Origin: a virus
Lineage: Duplodnaviria; Heunggongvirae; Uroviricota; Caudoviricetes
DNA: 4,227 nt
Strand: one strand, 5' to 3'
Virus record (IMG/VR): IMGVR_UViG_2554235189_000008
This document shows positions 936-4,156 of the stretch, piece by piece (within the stretch, counting starts at the first letter, position 1; each line of letters starts with the position of its first letter). The notes under the pieces were generated by a model. The model did not search any database. It saw only the letters and a program-made list of their open reading frames with translations, and was not told the origin of the DNA. The position numbers and the translations under genes are program-made.

Positions 936-1019
936 TTTATCACACAGAACAACTTTACCATTTTGATAAATCAACCGCAATGTAAATTTATCATATTGCG
1001 TATTTATCCATTTGCTAAA
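936..1019. promoter_or_regulatory. OR operator region: four 17-bp sites built on TTTATC-N5-GATAAA half-sites (936-952, 954-970, 987-1003, 1003-1019)
   Basis: Read directly: TTTATCACACAGAACAA, TTTACCATTTTGATAAA, TTTATCATATTGCGTAT, TTTATCCATTTGCTAAA at roughly 17-bp periodicity between the divergent cro and cI starts. Confidence 0.6.
952..980 (-). promoter_or_regulatory. PR-like promoter toward cro (-35 TTGCGG = revcomp 975-980, 17-nt spacer, -10 TAAAGT = revcomp 952-957)
   Basis: Sigma70-like hexamers with 17-bp spacing on the minus strand, overlapping operator sites 936-952 and 954-970, about 25 nt upstream of the cro SD. Confidence 0.45.
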
Positions 1020-1037: not shown

Positions 1038-1742
1038 ATGGAAAACAAAGATATTCGCAAATCGAATCTGGCGTTTTTGCTAGATGAGCATAAAAAAATC
1101 GCGGGTAACACTAATGCAAGCTTTGCCGATAAGCTTGGGGTTAGCCCTTCTCAACTCACGCAAGTCTCCGGTGAAAAAAGCACTCGAAACATAGGGGATA
1201 AACTAGCAAGAAAATTTGAAGCCGCGCTTGGGTTACCTAATGGGTGGCTTGATTTGGTACATGATGTAACACCAATTGCATCATGCTCAGATTCTTTAAC
1301 TTTTGTCGGTCAGGTAAGAAAAGGGTTAGTGCGCGTGGTTGGTGAGGCAATTCTTGGTGTTGATGGTGCCATCGAGATGACCGAAGAGCGCGATGGGTGG
1401 CTCAAAATTTATAGCGATGATCCAGATGCCTTTGGTCTTCGTGTGAAAGGAGACAGCATGTGGCCCAGAATAAAATCAGGAGAATATGTACTCATTGAGC
1501 CTAACACCAAAGTATTCCCGGGTGATGAGGTGTTTGTCAGAACCGTTGAAGGACACAACATGATTAAGGTTCTTGGCTATGACAGAGATGGAGAATACCA
1601 ATTTACAAGCATTAACCAGGATCACAGGCCTATAACGTTGCCTTATCATCAAGTAGCAAAGGTGGAGTATGTAGCTGGTATTCTGAAGCAATCTCGCCAT
1701 CTGGATGACATCGAGGCAAGGGAGTGGCTGAAAAGTTCGTGA
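1038..1742 (+). CDS. cI: CI-type prophage repressor, N-terminal HTH plus C-terminal S24 (LexA-like) autopeptidase domain
   Basis: 234-aa ORF. HTH-like segment ASFADKLGVSPSQLTQVSG, and the S24 catalytic-serine motif GDSMWP with a downstream Lys (MIKVL). Divergent from cro across the operators. Confidence 0.9.
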   Translation: MENKDIRKSNLAFLLDEHKKIAGNTNASFADKLGVSPSQLTQVSGEKSTRNIGDKLARKFEAALGLPNGWLDLVHDVTPIASCSDSLTFVGQVRKGLVRVVGEAILGVDGAIEMTEERDGWLKIYSDDPDAFGLRVKGDSMWPRIKSGEYVLIEPNTKVFPGDEVFVRTVEGHNMIKVLGYDRDGEYQFTSINQDHRPITLPYHQVAKVEYVAGILKQSRHLDDIEAREWLKSS

Positions 1743-1802
1743 CTTCATCGTCACATAGCTGGTAACCAGTGGCCAGAAGAAACGTTTGGGTGAGGAGGAT
1801 AG

Positions 1803-2144
1803 ATGGCGTTCACTGACCTTGAATATCAAGCGGTCAAAAAAGAAGTTCACCAATTCATTGAAAGCATAAGGCCGCCTGAACATATCCGCAATGAACTGGA
1901 TATTGTTTATAGCATCAATGACCAAACGATAGATATCGGCGAACAGCGCCCCGTGTGGCAGGGCAACCCAGGTGAAACAAACATCCTGCCATCAGCAAGA
2001 ATCAAGTACATACGTTCTCTGGATAGATGGAAAATCTATTGGATGCGGAAGGATATGAAATGGCATCAGTACAGTACTGAACTTTCGCTGACTGATGCGC
2101 TTGAGCTTGTGCGTGCTGACCCGGATTGCTGCTTCTTCGGATGA
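1803..2144 (+). CDS. Hypothetical protein (113 aa), first gene of the cI-downstream accessory cassette
   Basis: Strong SD GAGGAGG (1792-1798) 4 nt before ATG 1803. Co-directional with cI, 60-bp gap after the cI stop. Trp-rich C-terminal half and a terminal DPDCCFFG. I cannot assign a family. Confidence 0.75.
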   Translation: MAFTDLEYQAVKKEVHQFIESIRPPEHIRNELDIVYSINDQTIDIGEQRPVWQGNPGETNILPSARIKYIRSLDRWKIYWMRKDMKWHQYSTELSLTDALELVRADPDCCFFG

Positions 2145-2214
2145 GTGAAGAGACGTTTGGATGATGGATGATCGCAGAGATGCTCGTAGAGCATACAGCG
2201 ATGCAGGAGAATTT

Positions 2215-2649
2215 ATGGCACTTAATTTAGAAAGAATATCTTTTATAACCCCATTTGATAGCAGCGAAGAACCCAACCAACCGACGCTTAATTTTACATG
2301 CAATGAATTTCCTGCGCGGCTATCAATTGATTTCAGGGTTGGTATGATCGGGTTGAAACCAAATTCAAGATATAATTTGGGTATTATGGTAATCCCCGCG
2401 CACCTAATTATAAAAAAAGGTGAGGAAATTCAATTCCCTGACGGCTCTTCGGAATCAGTTTCACTTTTCATCGATACGAAAGATAGCCATTTTGAAACAG
2501 GGGTTGGCGGACAGGTAATAGTAACATTGAAAGAAATTAGGGTCCCAGCTAAAGGGCTGTATAGTGTTATAGGGATATTGCAAGATAATGAAGACCCTAA
2601 AAATGAACTTCATAAAAATGAATCATTTTTCACCGTAGAGCTATTATGA
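2215..2649 (+). CDS. Hypothetical protein (144 aa from ATG 2215; the longest ORF starts at 2161 and gives 162 aa), second gene of the accessory cassette
   Basis: ATG 2215 is preceded by AGGAG (2205-2209) at 5-nt spacing; ATG 2161 has no good SD. The stop TGA (2647-2649) overlaps the next gene's ATG (2646-2648). No recognisable motif. Confidence 0.7.
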   Translation: MALNLERISFITPFDSSEEPNQPTLNFTCNEFPARLSIDFRVGMIGLKPNSRYNLGIMVIPAHLIIKKGEEIQFPDGSSESVSLFIDTKDSHFETGVGGQVIVTLKEIRVPAKGLYSVIGILQDNEDPKNELHKNESFFTVELL

Positions 2650-3266
2650 GTGACGACAGTAATTTAAATAATCATGGAAAGCAAGACACCAACATATCTG
2701 AAAGCCGGAGGTTGAAGGTTGTTGGCGGTTCCGATTTTGAGGCTGAATTTGATAATTCTCCCACCAAGGTGCAAAATAATTACATAAAACCGCCACAAAC
2801 GGAGGAAGAAGTGGGAACGATCAGCAGAGAGGAACTTGATGCTCGCTTAGCTGCTAATAAAGCAGAGATGGAGTCTATTGCTTCTTCCATTAGGGCTGAC
2901 ATGGCTCTATCTCGTGAAAGCGTTAATGTCCAATTTGCATCACTTAATGCAGCCATAAGCTCTCTATCGTCCAAGATCGATGGAAAGATGGATAGCGCTG
3001 CTGGCGATATAAAAGCAATTAATGGGAGATTCGAAGGAATTCAAGGACAAATAACAGGGGTTAATACCGCAATTAGTGGTGTTCAGTCGGGTATTTCTAT
3101 ACGATTAGCCATTTTTAGTGTCATTATCGCTGTAATAGTTGCGATTCCCGGGCTGGTATCAGCTTTAAAGTCAGACCACGCACCTTTGCAACAGCCTTCC
3201 ACTTTGCAAGCGCCGCCACAAAATACCCAGCCAACAGACAACAAAAAAACCACTCCCCAGCATTAA
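2646..3266 (+). CDS. Hypothetical membrane-anchored protein (206 aa): N-terminal soluble region with predicted coiled-coil character, one C-terminal TM helix, Pro/Gln-rich tail
   Basis: Single hydrophobic stretch IRLAIFSVIIAVIVAIPGLVSAL (about residues 152-173, nt ~3100-3165). Preceding Ala/Ser/Ile-rich heptad-like sequence. ATGA start/stop overlap with the upstream gene. Confidence 0.75.
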   Translation: MSDDSNLNNHGKQDTNISESRRLKVVGGSDFEAEFDNSPTKVQNNYIKPPQTEEEVGTISREELDARLAANKAEMESIASSIRADMALSRESVNVQFASLNAAISSLSSKIDGKMDSAAGDIKAINGRFEGIQGQITGVNTAISGVQSGISIRLAIFSVIIAVIVAIPGLVSALKSDHAPLQQPSTLQAPPQNTQPTDNKKTTPQH

Positions 3267-3272
3267 CGCATT

Positions 3273-3300
3273 AACCCGGCCTCAGCGCCGGGTTTTCTTT
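3273..3300 (+). terminator. Rho-independent terminator ending the cI/accessory operon
   Basis: AACCCGGC (3273-3280), loop CTCAGC, GCCGGGTT (3287-3294), then TTTTCTTT through 3300. It starts 7 nt after the stop of the last cassette gene. Confidence 0.7.
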
Positions 3301-3404
3301 GCCTCACGATCCCCACACCTAAAAACACATAACCAATTGTATTTGTTGAAAAATAAATAGATACAACTTGCTAAACAACGCAATCCAGATCTCCCTCAAA
3401 TCTC

Positions 3405-3530
3405 TTTATTTATCCTGTCGAATTCCTACAACAAAATAAAACACCATAAGAATCAATACGATATTTGAAAACCAAGAGAATTTATCATTTTGCTATTGCC
3501 ATTAATTTATCATTCCGATAAAGTTCACCC
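3405..3530 (+). promoter_or_regulatory. OL/PL-like region: TTTATC operator sites (3409-3414; 17-mers 3481-3497 and 3506-3522) and PL-like promoter (-35 TTGCCA 3496-3501, 17-nt spacer, -10 TAAAGT 3519-3524)
   Basis: Site 3506-3522 TTTATCATTCCGATAAA is a perfect inverted repeat of the half-site seen in OR and overlaps the -10. The same -10 hexamer TAAAGT is used by the PR candidate. Confidence 0.45.
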
Positions 3531-3772: not shown

Positions 3773-4156
3773 ATGACACGCAGAACTCAGTTCAAAGGCA
3801 ATTCACATTCTCGTCGTCGTGAGCGTTTAAAGGCAAAGGCATTAGCTAACGGCGTGCTGGCCCGCGAAGAAGCAATAAGTTCAGAAGTATTACACCGCCC
3901 TACTCTAAGCAGAGCGCAGATTCAGGCTAAAGGTACTCACGAAACGCCTGAGCGCATAGAAGACGCTAAGCCAATTAAGTTCATGGCACAGGACGTGATC
4001 TGGCAGCAGAAAGAATACAGACGCAATCTGGAGCGAGCGGCCATTGTGTACGCGAATGAGTTTGGACATAAGCAACCAGAAACTGGTGTATGTCTTCCAA
4101 ACGTAGCCATTTACGCTGCAGGCTACCGGAAATCCAAACAACTGACAGCAAGATAA
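3773..4156 (+). CDS. N: N-like transcription antitermination protein (127 aa)
   Basis: N-terminal arginine-rich motif GNSHSRRRERLKAKALANG resembles the lambda N ARM (QTRRRERRAEKQAQW). Position downstream of OL/PL and a boxB hairpin. SD AGGAGG 5 nt before the ATG. From memory the sequence resembles N of H-19B/933W-type phages. Confidence 0.75.
   Translation: MTRRTQFKGNSHSRRRERLKAKALANGVLAREEAISSEVLHRPTLSRAQIQAKGTHETPERIEDAKPIKFMAQDVIWQQKEYRRNLERAAIVYANEFGHKQPETGVCLPNVAIYAAGYRKSKQLTAR

What the first reader, a model, noticed from the sequence alone, without database searches (positions are those of the whole stretch)
2646..3266. Membrane-anchored coiled-coil protein with a single C-terminal TM helix: plausible membrane-targeting effector
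The 206-aa product has a polar N-terminal segment, then an Ala/Ser/Ile-rich region with heptad-like spacing (...LAANKAEMESIASSIRADMALSRESVNVQFASLNAAISSLSSKIDG...), a 22-residue hydrophobic helix (IRLAIFSVIIAVIVAIPGLVSAL) and a Pro/Gln-rich tail. This architecture recurs in small membrane-active phage and abortive-infection proteins, though I cannot place it in a named family.
Basis: partly seen in the sequence, partly recalled or inferred. Interest (0 to 1): 0.6.

Follow-up and report, generated by a model that had tools for sequence, protein, structure and literature searches.

The report
Membrane-anchored gene pair replacing lambda rexAB
The gene is real and encodes a coiled-coil protein anchored in the inner membrane by its C-terminal end; together with the small gene upstream it sits in an E. 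coli prophage exactly where phage lambda keeps its rexAB phage-exclusion genes, so it is probably an uncharacterised anti-phage module that could be tested in two cultured phages.

Summary
ORF 2646-3266 encodes a 206-aa protein with a variable, disordered N-terminus, a long heptad helix (61-152), one strong C-terminal TM helix (153-175) and a Pro/Gln tail.

The window is a lambdoid prophage immunity region: O', cII, cro | cI, DUF3024, ORF144, ORF206, Timm terminator, OL/pL, N. In cultured phages HK244 and HK542, which have lambda cI, ORF144+ORF206 replace rexA-rexB base for base between the cI stop and Timm.

The family (phrog_5820, 68 clusters, Enterobacterales only, none named) has a constant coiled-coil/TM module. 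Its variable N-terminus co-varies with an exchangeable small upstream gene; here that gene encodes a cytoplasmic Ig-like beta-sandwich protein. The module nearly always lies directly behind a prophage repressor.

Best reading (inferred, untested): a lysogen-expressed, Rex-like two-component exclusion module, with ORF206 as the membrane effector. There is no homology to RexAB, holins, virion proteins or any known defence family. Weak profile matches point to trimeric coiled coils and to the heads of ClyA-type pore-forming toxins.

Interest is moderate to high.

The parts
2646..3266 (+). ORF206, the target: a tail-anchored coiled-coil inner-membrane protein (phrog_5820, function unknown)
   Evidence: ORF. 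phrog_5820 E 8.8e-77 over the full length. 68 homologue clusters. Purifying selection.
2646..2825 (+). Residues 1-60: variable, predicted-disordered N-terminal adaptor region, class A (motif LKVVGGSDFEAEFDNS)
   Evidence: Mean column entropy 3.11 against 1.05-1.35 in the core. pLDDT below 60. Its sequence class co-varies with the family of the upstream gene.
2826..3101 (+). Residues 61-152: long cytoplasmic helix / heptad coiled coil; residues 111-152 are Gly/Ser/Thr/Gln-rich heptads and are the most conserved part of the protein
   Evidence: AF2 helix 61-142. Indels of 7 or 14 residues only. Entropy 1.05, with non-core positions more conserved than a/d positions and GINTAISGIQSGIS nearly invariant.
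3102..3170 (+). Residues 153-175: the single transmembrane helix (R-LAIFSVIIAVIVAIPGLVSAL-K)
   Evidence: KD19 of 2.71, reached by 0/5000 shuffles. One TM-like segment in 60/61 relatives. Flank charges favour N-in/C-out in 47/56 members and never the reverse.
3171..3263 (+). Residues 176-206: Pro/Gln-rich tail, predicted periplasmic. Relatives carry a conserved QPIIIQVPQ motif that has degenerated here to QPSTLQAPPQ
   Evidence: Alignments A1 and A5. The tail is absent in some relatives.
2215..2649 (+). ORF144, the partner gene (listed as ORF162 from ATG 2161): a cytoplasmic Ig-like beta-sandwich protein (phrog_5893), translationally coupled to ORF206
3273..3294 (+). Intrinsic terminator, homologous to lambda Timm; marks the end of the cI operon
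   Evidence: 8-bp stem with 6 GC pairs plus a T run. Window 3272-3393 is 89% identical to the lambda region that starts at the rexB stop. Annotated as Timm in HK244.
1038..1742 (+). cI repressor (HTH + Peptidase_S24), first gene of the operon that contains the target
   Evidence: Pfam S24 E 3.8e-16 and PHROG transcriptional repressor. No terminator is predicted on the + strand between cI and 3273.
1803..2144 (+). DUF3024 gene (matches PADLOC candidate PDC-S43): a separate, independently mobile cassette stacked between cI and the pair
   Evidence: Pfam 2.4e-31 and PADLOC PDC-S43 7.2e-42. Present in 227/5426 E. coli genomes, against 51 for ORF206 and 18 for the whole three-gene block.
1767..1793 (+). 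Fossil of the 3' end of a lambda-type cI gene (QWPEETFG-stop) on the 5' side of the DUF3024 cassette
   Evidence: 25/30 nt identical to the lambda cI end; translation shown. BLAST hit.
2147..2164 (+). Second fossil of a lambda-type cI 3' end (EETFG-stop) on the 5' side of the ORF144+ORF206 cassette
   Evidence: 22/30 nt identical. Window 2146 onward aligns with HK244 1403 onward, i.e. the last 19 nt of HK244 cI.
3480..3524 (+). OL operators (ATTTATCAT at 3480-3488 and 3505-3513) and the pL-like promoter that drives N
   Evidence: Exact motif copies at 986, 3480 and 3505. Promoter-like site at 3496-3524. N_peptide gene at 3773-4156.

Best explanation
ORF206 is the membrane component of a two-gene accessory module (ORF144 + ORF206) carried in the cI-N slot of lambdoid prophages. 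That is the slot where lambda carries rexA-rexB.

Shown or directly read from sequence:
- The pair is co-oriented with cI.
- No terminator is predicted before the Timm homologue.
- The two genes overlap (ATGA).
- In HK244/HK542 the pair replaces rexAB exactly.

Predicted:
- ORF206 is tail-anchored in the inner membrane, with about 150 residues in the cytoplasm and about 30 in the periplasm.
- The cytoplasmic part is a long, probably trimeric, coiled coil. Its membrane-proximal Gly/Ser/Thr/Gln-rich heptads are nearly invariant.
- ORF144 is a soluble cytoplasmic Ig-like beta-sandwich protein.

Inferred:
- The module is made in the lysogen from the repressor promoters.
- ORF144 binds the variable N-terminal tail of ORF206 and acts as the specificity or sensor subunit.
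- On infection by another phage, the constant coiled-coil/TM module is released or re-arranged and compromises the inner membrane (pore or depolarisation), aborting the infection as RexA/RexB is thought to do.

My rough confidence by step: architecture and operon about 0.9; two-protein unit about 0.75; anti-phage function about 0.55; membrane-permeabilising abortive mechanism about 0.3.
For: Slot:
- HK244 is 99.3% identical to lambda up to the last base of cI. Similarity resumes at the rexB stop/Timm. In between, a 1106-bp cassette stands in place of lambda's 1398-bp rexAB.
- Window 2146-3393 is 98.2% identical to that cassette.
- The cI-N interval is a recognised mosaic hotspot that holds the abortive-infection systems rexAB and bstA, transcribed from the cI promoter (PMC8585504 and PMC7067206).
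- The same cI as in the window is followed by a HigB-type TA cassette in BP-4795.

Conserved context:
- The order repressor -> small gene -> effector recurs in Klebsiella/Enterobacter-type, Rac-like, Morganella and Yersinia prophages.

Modularity:
- Four partner families and seven N-terminal clusters; each N-terminal cluster occurs with a single partner family in all 24 distinct loci where a partner ORF was called (ARI 0.85).
- Solo forms start at the constant module; in the one whose context was checked there is no small upstream partner.
- Distant relatives of ORF144 are again followed by tail-anchored coiled-coil proteins.

Membrane effector:
- Strong single TM helix.
- N-in charge bias, and partners without signal peptides.
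- Residues 111-152 are the most conserved region, and their non-core positions are more constrained than the a/d positions. That does not fit a passive stalk.
- Weak but recurrent profile matches to the membrane-inserting head of the ClyA-type toxins SmhB, AhlB, NheB and MakE.
Against: - No experiment and no homology to any characterised defence, toxin or channel family. PADLOC gives nothing for ORF144 and only chance-level coiled-coil hits for ORF206. BLASTP to RexA/RexB gives E >= 0.059.
- The toxin matches have E 0.013-0.031 and fall far below the family cut-offs (15.6 bits against 360), so they may reflect composition only.
- The solo variants argue that the constant module is not intrinsically lethal. 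That fits a constitutive exclusion protein at least as well as a triggered pore.
- The partner/N-terminus co-variation involves adjacent DNA inherited as one block, so it is not independent proof of a physical interaction.
- Transcription from pRM/pRE is inferred from the layout, not measured.
- The AF2 model of ORF206 has low overall confidence (pLDDT 58.9), and its oligomeric state is inferred from Ile-rich core positions.
Confidence: 0.45

Rival explanations
1. Non-abortive superinfection exclusion. The tail-anchored protein sits constitutively in the inner membrane and blocks a membrane step of incoming phages, such as DNA translocation or use of an inner-membrane channel, without killing the cell. 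This is the way HK97 gp15, T4 Imm or P22 SieA work. ORF144 and the N-terminal tail would modulate or stabilise it.
For: - Same lysogen-expressed slot.
- Solo forms without a regulator exist, which suggests the module is not toxic on its own.
- A juxtamembrane helix that is nearly invariant across all partner classes could be a binding site for a conserved host membrane protein.
- Most members keep a conserved periplasmic motif, QPIIIQVPQ.
Against: - About 150 of the 206 residues, and the whole partner protein, are predicted cytoplasmic. That is more apparatus than known small Sie proteins need.
- The periplasmic tail is dispensable: it is missing in L067_159, in the 108/122-aa relatives and in the Xenorhabdus forms, and it has degenerated in the window protein.
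- No similarity to any known Sie family.
Confidence: 0.2
2. A toxin-antitoxin-like addiction module, or a lysogeny-control module. ORF206 would be a membrane toxin held in check by ORF144, stabilising the prophage. Alternatively the pair would tune host membrane proteolysis (e.g. FtsH) or the lysis-lysogeny decision rather than acting on other phages.
For: - Tightly coupled two-gene operon with overlapping stop and start.
- The same slot holds a HigB-type TA cassette in BP-4795.
- Xenorhabdus relatives sit beside RelB/YafQ.
- One E. coli genome has an IS1 insertion in the gene, and truncated alleles exist.
Against: - Solo effector forms with no small partner gene (in the one context checked) argue against an obligate toxin-antitoxin pair.
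- No similarity to any TA family.
- Many TA-like modules in this slot are themselves abortive-infection systems, so this reading overlaps with the best explanation.
Confidence: 0.1
3. A lysogenic-conversion factor unrelated to phage-phage conflict, for example an envelope-stress, stationary-phase or host-interaction function. Tail-anchored coiled-coil stress proteins of the host are a precedent.
For: - Accessory slot expressed in lysogens.
- Architecture of a tail-anchored cytoplasmic coiled coil.
- Function unknown in every database searched.
Against: - Exchangeable sensor-like partners on a constant effector, strict association with prophage repressors and with accessory gene clusters in tail modules, and patchy distribution (51/5426 E. 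coli genomes, always single copy) are typical of conflict systems.
- No match to host stress-protein families.
Confidence: 0.1
4. A virion, lysis-cassette (holin/XhlA/spanin-like) or scaffold protein that has been misplaced, or a compositional artefact matched by baculovirus PEP/P10 models.
For: Sub-threshold Pfam hits to Baculo_PEP_C (19.6 bits against a cut-off of 38), Phage_scaffold and XhlA in relatives. Some relatives lie inside tail-gene clusters.
Against: - All these hits are below the curated cut-offs and cover only the heptad region.
- The gene lies in the immunity operon, not the late operon.
- In tail clusters it sits among accessory genes (TA, Arc, ORF6N, DinI), not among conserved structural genes.
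- Topology is the reverse of an i-spanin.
Confidence: 0.03

Closest known systems
Phage lambda RexA/RexB abortive-infection (exclusion) system
   Same: - Identical genomic slot: between the cI stop codon and the Timm terminator, co-oriented with cI.
- In HK244/HK542 the pair is an allelic replacement of rexAB.
- Same gene order and logic: a soluble cytoplasmic protein first, an inner-membrane protein second.
- RexB is reported to be an ion channel activated by the sensor RexA (PMC8585504).
   Different: - No sequence similarity (BLASTP E >= 0.059).
- RexB is a 144-aa protein with hydrophobic stretches along its whole length (sequence printed; a four-TM topology is from my own knowledge). ORF206 has one C-terminal TM helix plus a 90-residue coiled coil.
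- RexA is 279 aa; ORF144 is a 144-aa Ig-like sandwich.
- The modular N-terminus/partner exchange has no counterpart in Rex.
BstA of Salmonella prophage BTP1 and other cI-linked prophage defence genes
   Same: Located directly downstream of the prophage repressor and presumably sharing its promoter; mediates abortive infection (PMC8585504, PMC7067206).
   Different: BstA is a single soluble protein that localises to sites of phage DNA replication. There is no membrane anchor, no partner gene and no homology.
ClyA-family tripartite alpha-pore-forming toxin components (SmhB, AhlB, NheB/L1, MakE, MakA)
   Same: The constant-module profile aligns its Gly-rich heptads plus TM helix with the membrane-inserting head region of four of these proteins (query 19-117 to chain about 116-219). 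NCBIfam MakE/MakA models also give weak hits.
   Different: - E-values are 0.006-0.18 and bit scores about 15-18, against family cut-offs of 320-360.
- Those toxins are secreted proteins of about 360 aa with a five-helix tail domain.
- The resemblance may be compositional. Membership is not supported.
Trimeric coiled-coil stalks with a membrane anchor (influenza HA2, reovirus sigma-1 tail, trimeric autotransporter stalks, archaeal S-layer SlaB)
   Same: These are the best PDB and NCBIfam profile matches (HA2 E 0.0012, sigma-1 0.0013, SlaB 4.9e-4 to its C-terminal coiled coil + TM). Ile-rich core positions are typical of trimers (inference from the coiled-coil literature, own knowledge).
   Different: Only the heptad pattern is shared. 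Those proteins are extracellular or virion proteins; here the coil is predicted cytoplasmic.
XhlA-type and other tail-anchored coiled-coil phage proteins (PF10779; phrog_9415, 3556, 6136, 6324)
   Same: Same architecture: N-terminal coiled coil with a C-terminal TM helix. phrog_9415 weakly links ORF206, L067_159 and L065_122.
   Different: XhlA hits are not significant (E 0.26-0.63), and XhlA sits in a lysis cassette (own knowledge). The PHROGs are all of unknown function.
Baculovirus polyhedron envelope protein C-terminus / P10 (PF04513, PF05531)
   Same: Heptad Ile/Gly/Ser-rich repeats. Several relatives are auto-named after this Pfam family.
   Different: 19.6 bits for the window protein against a gathering score of 38; the hit covers the heptad region only. 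This is a compositional match and not a family assignment.

Membership tests
phrog_5820 (phage protein family, function unknown) | Full-length match to the family profile | tested here: met
   E 8.8e-77, residues 1-201 to profile positions 1-199 of 200. The distant relative L067_159 also matches (2.7e-35).
Lambda RexB | Sequence similarity to RexB | tested here: not met
   No BLASTP alignment between ORF206 and RexB at E <= 100.
Lambda RexB | Polytopic inner-membrane protein (several TM helices) | tested here: not met
   ORF206 has a single TM-like segment, as do 60/61 relatives.
Lambda RexA | Sequence similarity of the soluble partner to RexA | tested here: not met
   ORF144 against RexA gives E >= 12. 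ORF144 is an Ig-like sandwich of 144 aa.
RexAB-like system (functional class) | Located between cI and Timm and co-transcribed with cI in the lysogen | tested here: inconclusive
   The position is met exactly, and no intervening terminator is predicted. Transcription itself cannot be measured here.
RexAB-like system (functional class) | Excludes superinfecting phages by loss of membrane potential | not testable with these tools
   Needs plaque and efficiency-of-plating assays and membrane-potential assays.
Tail-anchored inner-membrane protein (architectural class) | Single TM helix near the C-terminus, no signal peptide, large cytoplasmic N-terminal domain | tested here: met
   - TM helix at 153-175 of 206 residues.
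- Polar N-terminus.
- Flank net charge +0.96 (N side) against +0.05 (C side); N>C in 47/56 members and never the reverse.
This is a prediction only.
Coiled coil | Heptad periodicity maintained in evolution | tested here: met
   Explicit heptads at 111-152. Indels of 7, 7, 14 and 14 residues. A continuous helix in AF2.
Pfam Baculo_PEP_C (PF04513) | Score at or above the gathering threshold (38 bits) | tested here: not met
   19.6 bits, E 0.001. Relatives score 25-30 bits.
ClyA-type alpha-pore-forming toxins (NCBIfam MakE/MakA; PDB SmhB/AhlB/NheB) | Significant sequence match to the family model | tested here: not met
   MakE 15.6 bits against a cut-off of 360; MakA 10.8 against 320. PDB profile hits have E 0.013-0.031.
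Holin / XhlA / spanin (lysis cassette proteins) | Family match, and location in a lysis cassette | tested here: not met
   No Pfam, PHROG or NCBIfam lysis family at E <= 0.1 for ORF206. XhlA gives E 0.26-0.63 in relatives. The gene lies in the immunity operon.
Known anti-phage defence systems (PADLOC-DB v2.0.0) | Match of ORF206, ORF144 or any alternative partner to a defence-protein model | tested here: not met
   - ORF206: only LmuB at E 0.016 (coiled-coil noise).
- ORF144: no hit.
- Partner classes B and C: no hit.
- Effector variants: only LeoC or PbeC at E 0.0013.
- The neighbouring DUF3024 gene does match PDC-S43 (7.2e-42), but it is a separate cassette.
Ig-like beta-sandwich fold (ORF144 partner) | Confident all-beta model with significant structural matches to Ig-like domains | tested here: met

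The most novel reading that the evidence does not exclude
ORF206 defines a previously unrecognised, plug-and-play class of prophage abortive-infection systems. A nearly invariant tail-anchored coiled-coil module oligomerises into an inner-membrane pore, possibly as a distant mechanistic cousin of ClyA-type alpha-pore-formers. It is armed by interchangeable 'adaptor tail + small sensor protein' cassettes: at least four unrelated sensor families, one of them Ig-like. This lets lambdoid prophages swap trigger specificity while keeping the same killing device, and it functionally substitutes for RexAB.
Probability: 0.25. Interest if true: 0.8.

Novelty: new variant of a known kind. Interest (0 to 1): 0.6.

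Why it matters
The cI-N slot of lambdoid phages is where RexAB, the oldest known abortive-infection system, was found. Its mechanism is still poorly understood (PMC8585504).

This work identifies an unrelated two-gene cassette that replaces rexAB base for base in phages that are otherwise lambda-like in this region. Both phages are in culture (HK244, HK542), so isogenic comparisons are straightforward.

If the module is a defence system, it would add a new effector type (a tail-anchored coiled coil) and a clear example of sensor swapping on a fixed effector.

The cI-end fossils also show how cassettes are exchanged and stacked in this hotspot, namely by recombination at the conserved last codons of cI.

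If the module is not a defence system, it remains a widespread (68 clusters across Enterobacterales), lysogen-positioned membrane protein of unknown function, also carried by prophages of pathogenic E. coli.

Tried and rejected
- **Profile libraries.** Pfam, NCBIfam, PADLOC and PHROGs scans of ORF206, ORF144 and the alternative partners gave only unknown-function PHROGs and sub-threshold coiled-coil hits.
- **Baculo_PEP_C / P10 / Rota_VP6 / SlaB / LmuB / LeoC / PbeC.** Rejected as compositional matches, all below cut-offs.
- **RexA/RexB homology.** Rejected.
- **remAIN, HepS and GiPD474** (Gifsy immunity-region defences). I read the two papers that mention them; the remAIN paper itself was not found. 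HepS and GiPD474 are described there as soluble HEPN-domain and ATPase proteins, and neither paper describes a membrane protein. tblastn of ORF206 against 50,697 phage records hits only HK244 and HK542.
- **Literature.** Searches for the RefSeq accessions, DUF3024, PDC-S43 and HK244/HK542, plus the DefensePredictor supplements, gave no functional data. Degnan et al. 2007, the source of the HK244/HK542 records, is not held.
- **Fold searches.** A fold search with the ORF206 model was not attempted, because the model is a single long helix with pLDDT 58.9. The afdb50 library was unavailable. BFVD hits for ORF144 are all uncharacterised proteins.
- **The 162-aa start of the upstream gene.** Rejected in favour of ATG 2215.
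- **DUF3024 as a third subunit.** Rejected: it has an independent distribution and its own cI-end fossil.
- **Minus-strand ORFs inside the target** (2780-2974, 3083-3253). I treated these as shadow ORFs, since the conservation found is all in the + frame.
Full report
**1. What the window is**

The 4227-bp window is the immunity region of a lambdoid prophage of E. coli. The 1743-3300 stretch that was searched is 100% identical to the chromosome of O55:H7 strain USDA5905.

Gene order:
- Minus strand: the start of replication gene O (17-223), cII (256-552, Phage_CII 6.6e-35) and cro (691-924).
- Plus strand: cI (1038-1742, Peptidase_S24 3.8e-16), a DUF3024 gene (1803-2144), a 162/144-aa ORF (2161 or 2215 to 2649), the target ORF206 (2646-3266), an intrinsic terminator (3273-3294), operator/pL sequences, and an N-type antiterminator gene (3773-4156, N_peptide 2.2e-15).

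The motif ATTTATCAT occurs exactly at 986 (OR) and at 3480 and 3505 (OL). The two OL copies flank a pL-like promoter.

The target therefore lies in the operon headed by the repressor gene, in the position that rexA-rexB occupy in lambda.

**2.

- Its hydrophobic segment scores 2.71 on a 19-residue Kyte-Doolittle window. No shuffle out of 5000 reaches that value.
- Residues 111-152 are explicit heptads (I-x-G-x-I-x-x).
- In the family alignment, every indel block within the helical region is 7 or 14 residues long.
- AlphaFold2 with the family alignment gives one long helix (61-142), a second helix (150-174) and disordered termini. Overall confidence is low (pLDDT 58.9) but high for residues 61-110, as expected for a coiled-coil subunit modelled as a monomer.
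- Between genera, synonymous sites are saturated (pS 0.72-0.91) while the core has pN 0.12-0.22. This is a real gene under purifying selection.

**3. Topology (predicted)**

- 60 of 61 relatives have exactly one TM-like segment.
- The 15 residues before the helix carry a mean net charge of +0.96, against +0.05 after it. The N side is more positive in 47 of 56 proteins and never less positive.
- There is no signal peptide, and none of the upstream partner proteins has one.

The protein is therefore predicted to be tail-anchored. About 150 residues lie in the cytoplasm and a tail of about 30 residues lies in the periplasm.

**4. The pair replaces rexAB**

tblastn of ORF206 against 50,697 phage records finds only HK244 and HK542 (98.5% identity), in records annotated as immunity regions with lambda-type cI, operators and Timm.

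- HK244 is 99.3% identical to lambda from the cII-cro region through the last base of cI.
- Similarity resumes (91.8%) at the rexB stop codon and Timm.
- The 1398 bp of rexA-rexB between those points are replaced by a 1106-bp cassette containing the two genes.
- Window 2146-3393 is 98.2% identical to that cassette and its downstream flank. Window 3272-3393 is 89% identical to the lambda Timm region.
- The pair shows no sequence similarity to RexA or RexB.

The literature treats the cI-N interval as a mosaic hotspot. It carries the abortive-infection systems rexAB and bstA, which are transcribed from the repressor promoter (PMC8585504 and PMC7067206). The same cI allele as in the window is followed by a HigB-type toxin-antitoxin cassette in phage BP-4795.

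**5. How the cassettes got there**

Two short fossils of the 3' end of a lambda-type cI gene lie in the window:
- QWPEETFG-stop at 1767-1793, just before the DUF3024 gene.
- EETFG-stop at 2147-2164, just before the pair.

Each cassette thus brought its own cI-end stub. They were evidently stacked by recombination at these conserved last codons.

This also shows that the first 18 codons of 'ORF162' are the old stub plus spacer. The true start is ATG 2215, preceded by AGGAG at 2205-2209. That matches the 140-153-aa homologues and the HK244 annotation.

DUF3024 (which matches PADLOC candidate PDC-S43, 7.2e-42) is independent of the pair. It occurs in 227 of 5426 complete E. coli genomes, ORF206 in 51, and the three-gene block in 18.

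**6. The family and its modularity**

ORF206 belongs to phrog_5820, a family of unknown function (8.8e-77). Searches with the protein and with a profile of its constant module find 68 clusters. All are in Enterobacterales, from Escherichia to Morganella, Xenorhabdus and Pectobacterium, and none has a functional name.

The family has two parts:
- A constant C-terminal module: S-R-E-E-L...coiled coil...TM, usually followed by a QPIIIQVPQ motif.
- A variable N-terminal region of 40-116 residues.

Immediately upstream, overlapping or within 18 bases, lies a small gene from one of at least four unrelated families:
- The 143-153-aa ORF144 type.
- A 112-120-aa protein with CxxC motifs.
- Two groups of 92-101-aa proteins.

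In 24 of the 25 distinct loci a small upstream ORF was called, and in those each N-terminal sequence cluster occurs with only one partner family (ARI 0.85). Short solo members (138-154 aa) begin at the constant module; in the one whose context was checked (L059, Xenorhabdus) there is no small upstream partner.

Going the other way, distant relatives of ORF144 are again followed by tail-anchored coiled-coil proteins (159, 122 and 108 aa). Some of these lack any periplasmic tail.

The usual context is repressor -> partner -> effector, seen in lambda-like, Rac-like, Morganella and Yersinia prophages. The exceptions lie among accessory genes inside tail modules, next to RelB/YafQ, Arc/ORF6N or DinI.

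Caveat: the partner gene and the 5' part of the effector gene are adjacent DNA. Their co-variation shows that they are inherited, and presumably function, as a block. It does not prove that the proteins bind each other.

**7. The partner**

The fold is a generic protein-binding fold. Viral structure matches are all uncharacterised.

**8. Clues to the effector mechanism**

Residues 111-152 are the most conserved part of the protein. Mean column entropy is 1.05, against 1.35 for the TM helix, 1.31 for residues 61-110, 2.33 for the tail and 3.11 for the N-terminus.

Within that stretch, the non-core Gly/Ser/Thr/Gln/Asn positions (entropy 0.70-0.90) are more constrained than the hydrophobic core positions (1.25-1.43). 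The juxtamembrane sequence GINTAISGIQSGIS is almost invariant. A passive stalk would show the opposite pattern. This surface either packs tightly in an oligomer, inserts into the membrane, or binds a conserved host component.

Profile searches of the PDB give only weak hits:
- Trimeric coiled coils: HA2 1.2e-3 and sigma-1 1.3e-3, plus trimeric autotransporter stalks and tail fibres at weaker E-values.
- Four related ClyA-type pore-forming toxin B components, aligned over their membrane-inserting heads: SmhB 0.013, AhlB 0.017, NheB 0.026, MakE 0.031.

I treat these as leads, not as family membership.

**9. Interpretation**

The best-supported reading is a lysogen-expressed, Rex-like two-component exclusion module. 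A cytoplasmic specificity or sensor protein (ORF144) would be coupled through the variable N-terminal tail to a constant tail-anchored coiled-coil effector acting on the inner membrane.

What I consider well established is the architecture, the operon structure and the exact substitution for rexAB. The anti-phage function is inferred from position, modularity and distribution. The membrane-permeabilising, abortive mechanism is the least secure step.

The solo forms and the invariant juxtamembrane surface fit a constitutive, non-lethal superinfection-exclusion protein almost as well. A TA-like or lysogeny-control role, or a host-fitness role, cannot be excluded. A virion or lysis role is very unlikely.

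**10. Novelty**

No paper, accession search or defence database that I could query describes these proteins. The kind of thing, an accessory exclusion cassette behind cI, is well known. The proteins, the tail-anchored coiled-coil effector and the exchangeable adaptor/partner arrangement are not. Because HK244 and HK542 are cultured phages, the hypothesis can be tested directly.

Noticed in passing
window 1767-1793 and 2147-2164: Two fossils of the 3' end of a lambda-type cI gene (QWPEETFG-stop and EETFG-stop). One sits in front of the DUF3024 cassette and one in front of the ORF144+ORF206 cassette, although the window's own cI ends differently (...REWLKSS-stop). This suggests that cassettes are exchanged and stacked by recombination at the last codons of cI.
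   Followed up: yes
window 1803-2144: A DUF3024 gene that matches the PADLOC candidate single-gene defence system PDC-S43 (7.2e-42). It is an independent cassette, present in 227 of 5426 complete E. coli genomes, and is far more common than the ORF144+ORF206 pair. Its function is unknown.
   Followed up: partly
window 2161-2214: RefSeq annotates the upstream gene as 162 aa from ATG 2161 (in another prophage this overlaps the end of cI). Those 18 codons are the cI-end fossil plus the former intergenic spacer. Homologues and the HK244 record start at the equivalent of ATG 2215, which has a good Shine-Dalgarno sequence.
   Followed up: yes
window 3773-4156 (L001 8031-8411): An intact 127-aa N-type antiterminator ORF (Pfam N_peptide 2.2e-15, Arg-rich N-terminus) is not annotated as a gene in the identical RefSeq record. 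That record lists only a 69-bp pseudogene fragment called 'regulator' at its 3' end.
   Followed up: partly
window 3171-3263 versus family alignments A1/A5: Most relatives carry a conserved hydrophobic motif, QPIIIQVPQ, about 10-15 residues after the TM helix. In the E. coli protein it has degenerated to QPSTLQAPPQ, and it is missing altogether in the Xenorhabdus and short forms. Its role is unexplained.
   Followed up: partly
L059 4001-5306 and L060 (Xenorhabdus bovienii); L061 (Yersinia): Solo or partnered family members also occur inside tail-gene clusters, among accessory genes (Arc repressors, an ORF6N protein, RelB/YafQ toxin-antitoxin, DinI). This is a second kind of accessory-gene location for the family.
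   Followed up: partly
L002 3364-4705 (phage BP-4795): The same cI allele as in the window is followed in BP-4795 by a HigB-family toxin gene, an HTH regulator and a hypothetical gene instead of the window's three genes. This illustrates cassette turnover in this slot.
   Followed up: partly
E. coli genomes NZ_CP195467.1 (H57) and NZ_CP027445.1 (H59): One genome has an IS1 element inserted in the ORF206 region, and another retains only the 3' 47% of the gene. Truncated 111-128-aa products also appear among the protein clusters (some are flagged partial in the source, so they may be contig-end fragments). This could reflect loss or counter-selection.
   Followed up: no
window 963-994, 3408-3416, 3480-3513: The repeated motif ATTTATCAT occurs exactly at 986, 3480 and 3505, with one-mismatch copies at 963 (minus strand) and 3408. 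These mark the OR and OL operator regions of this immunity type.
   Followed up: partly
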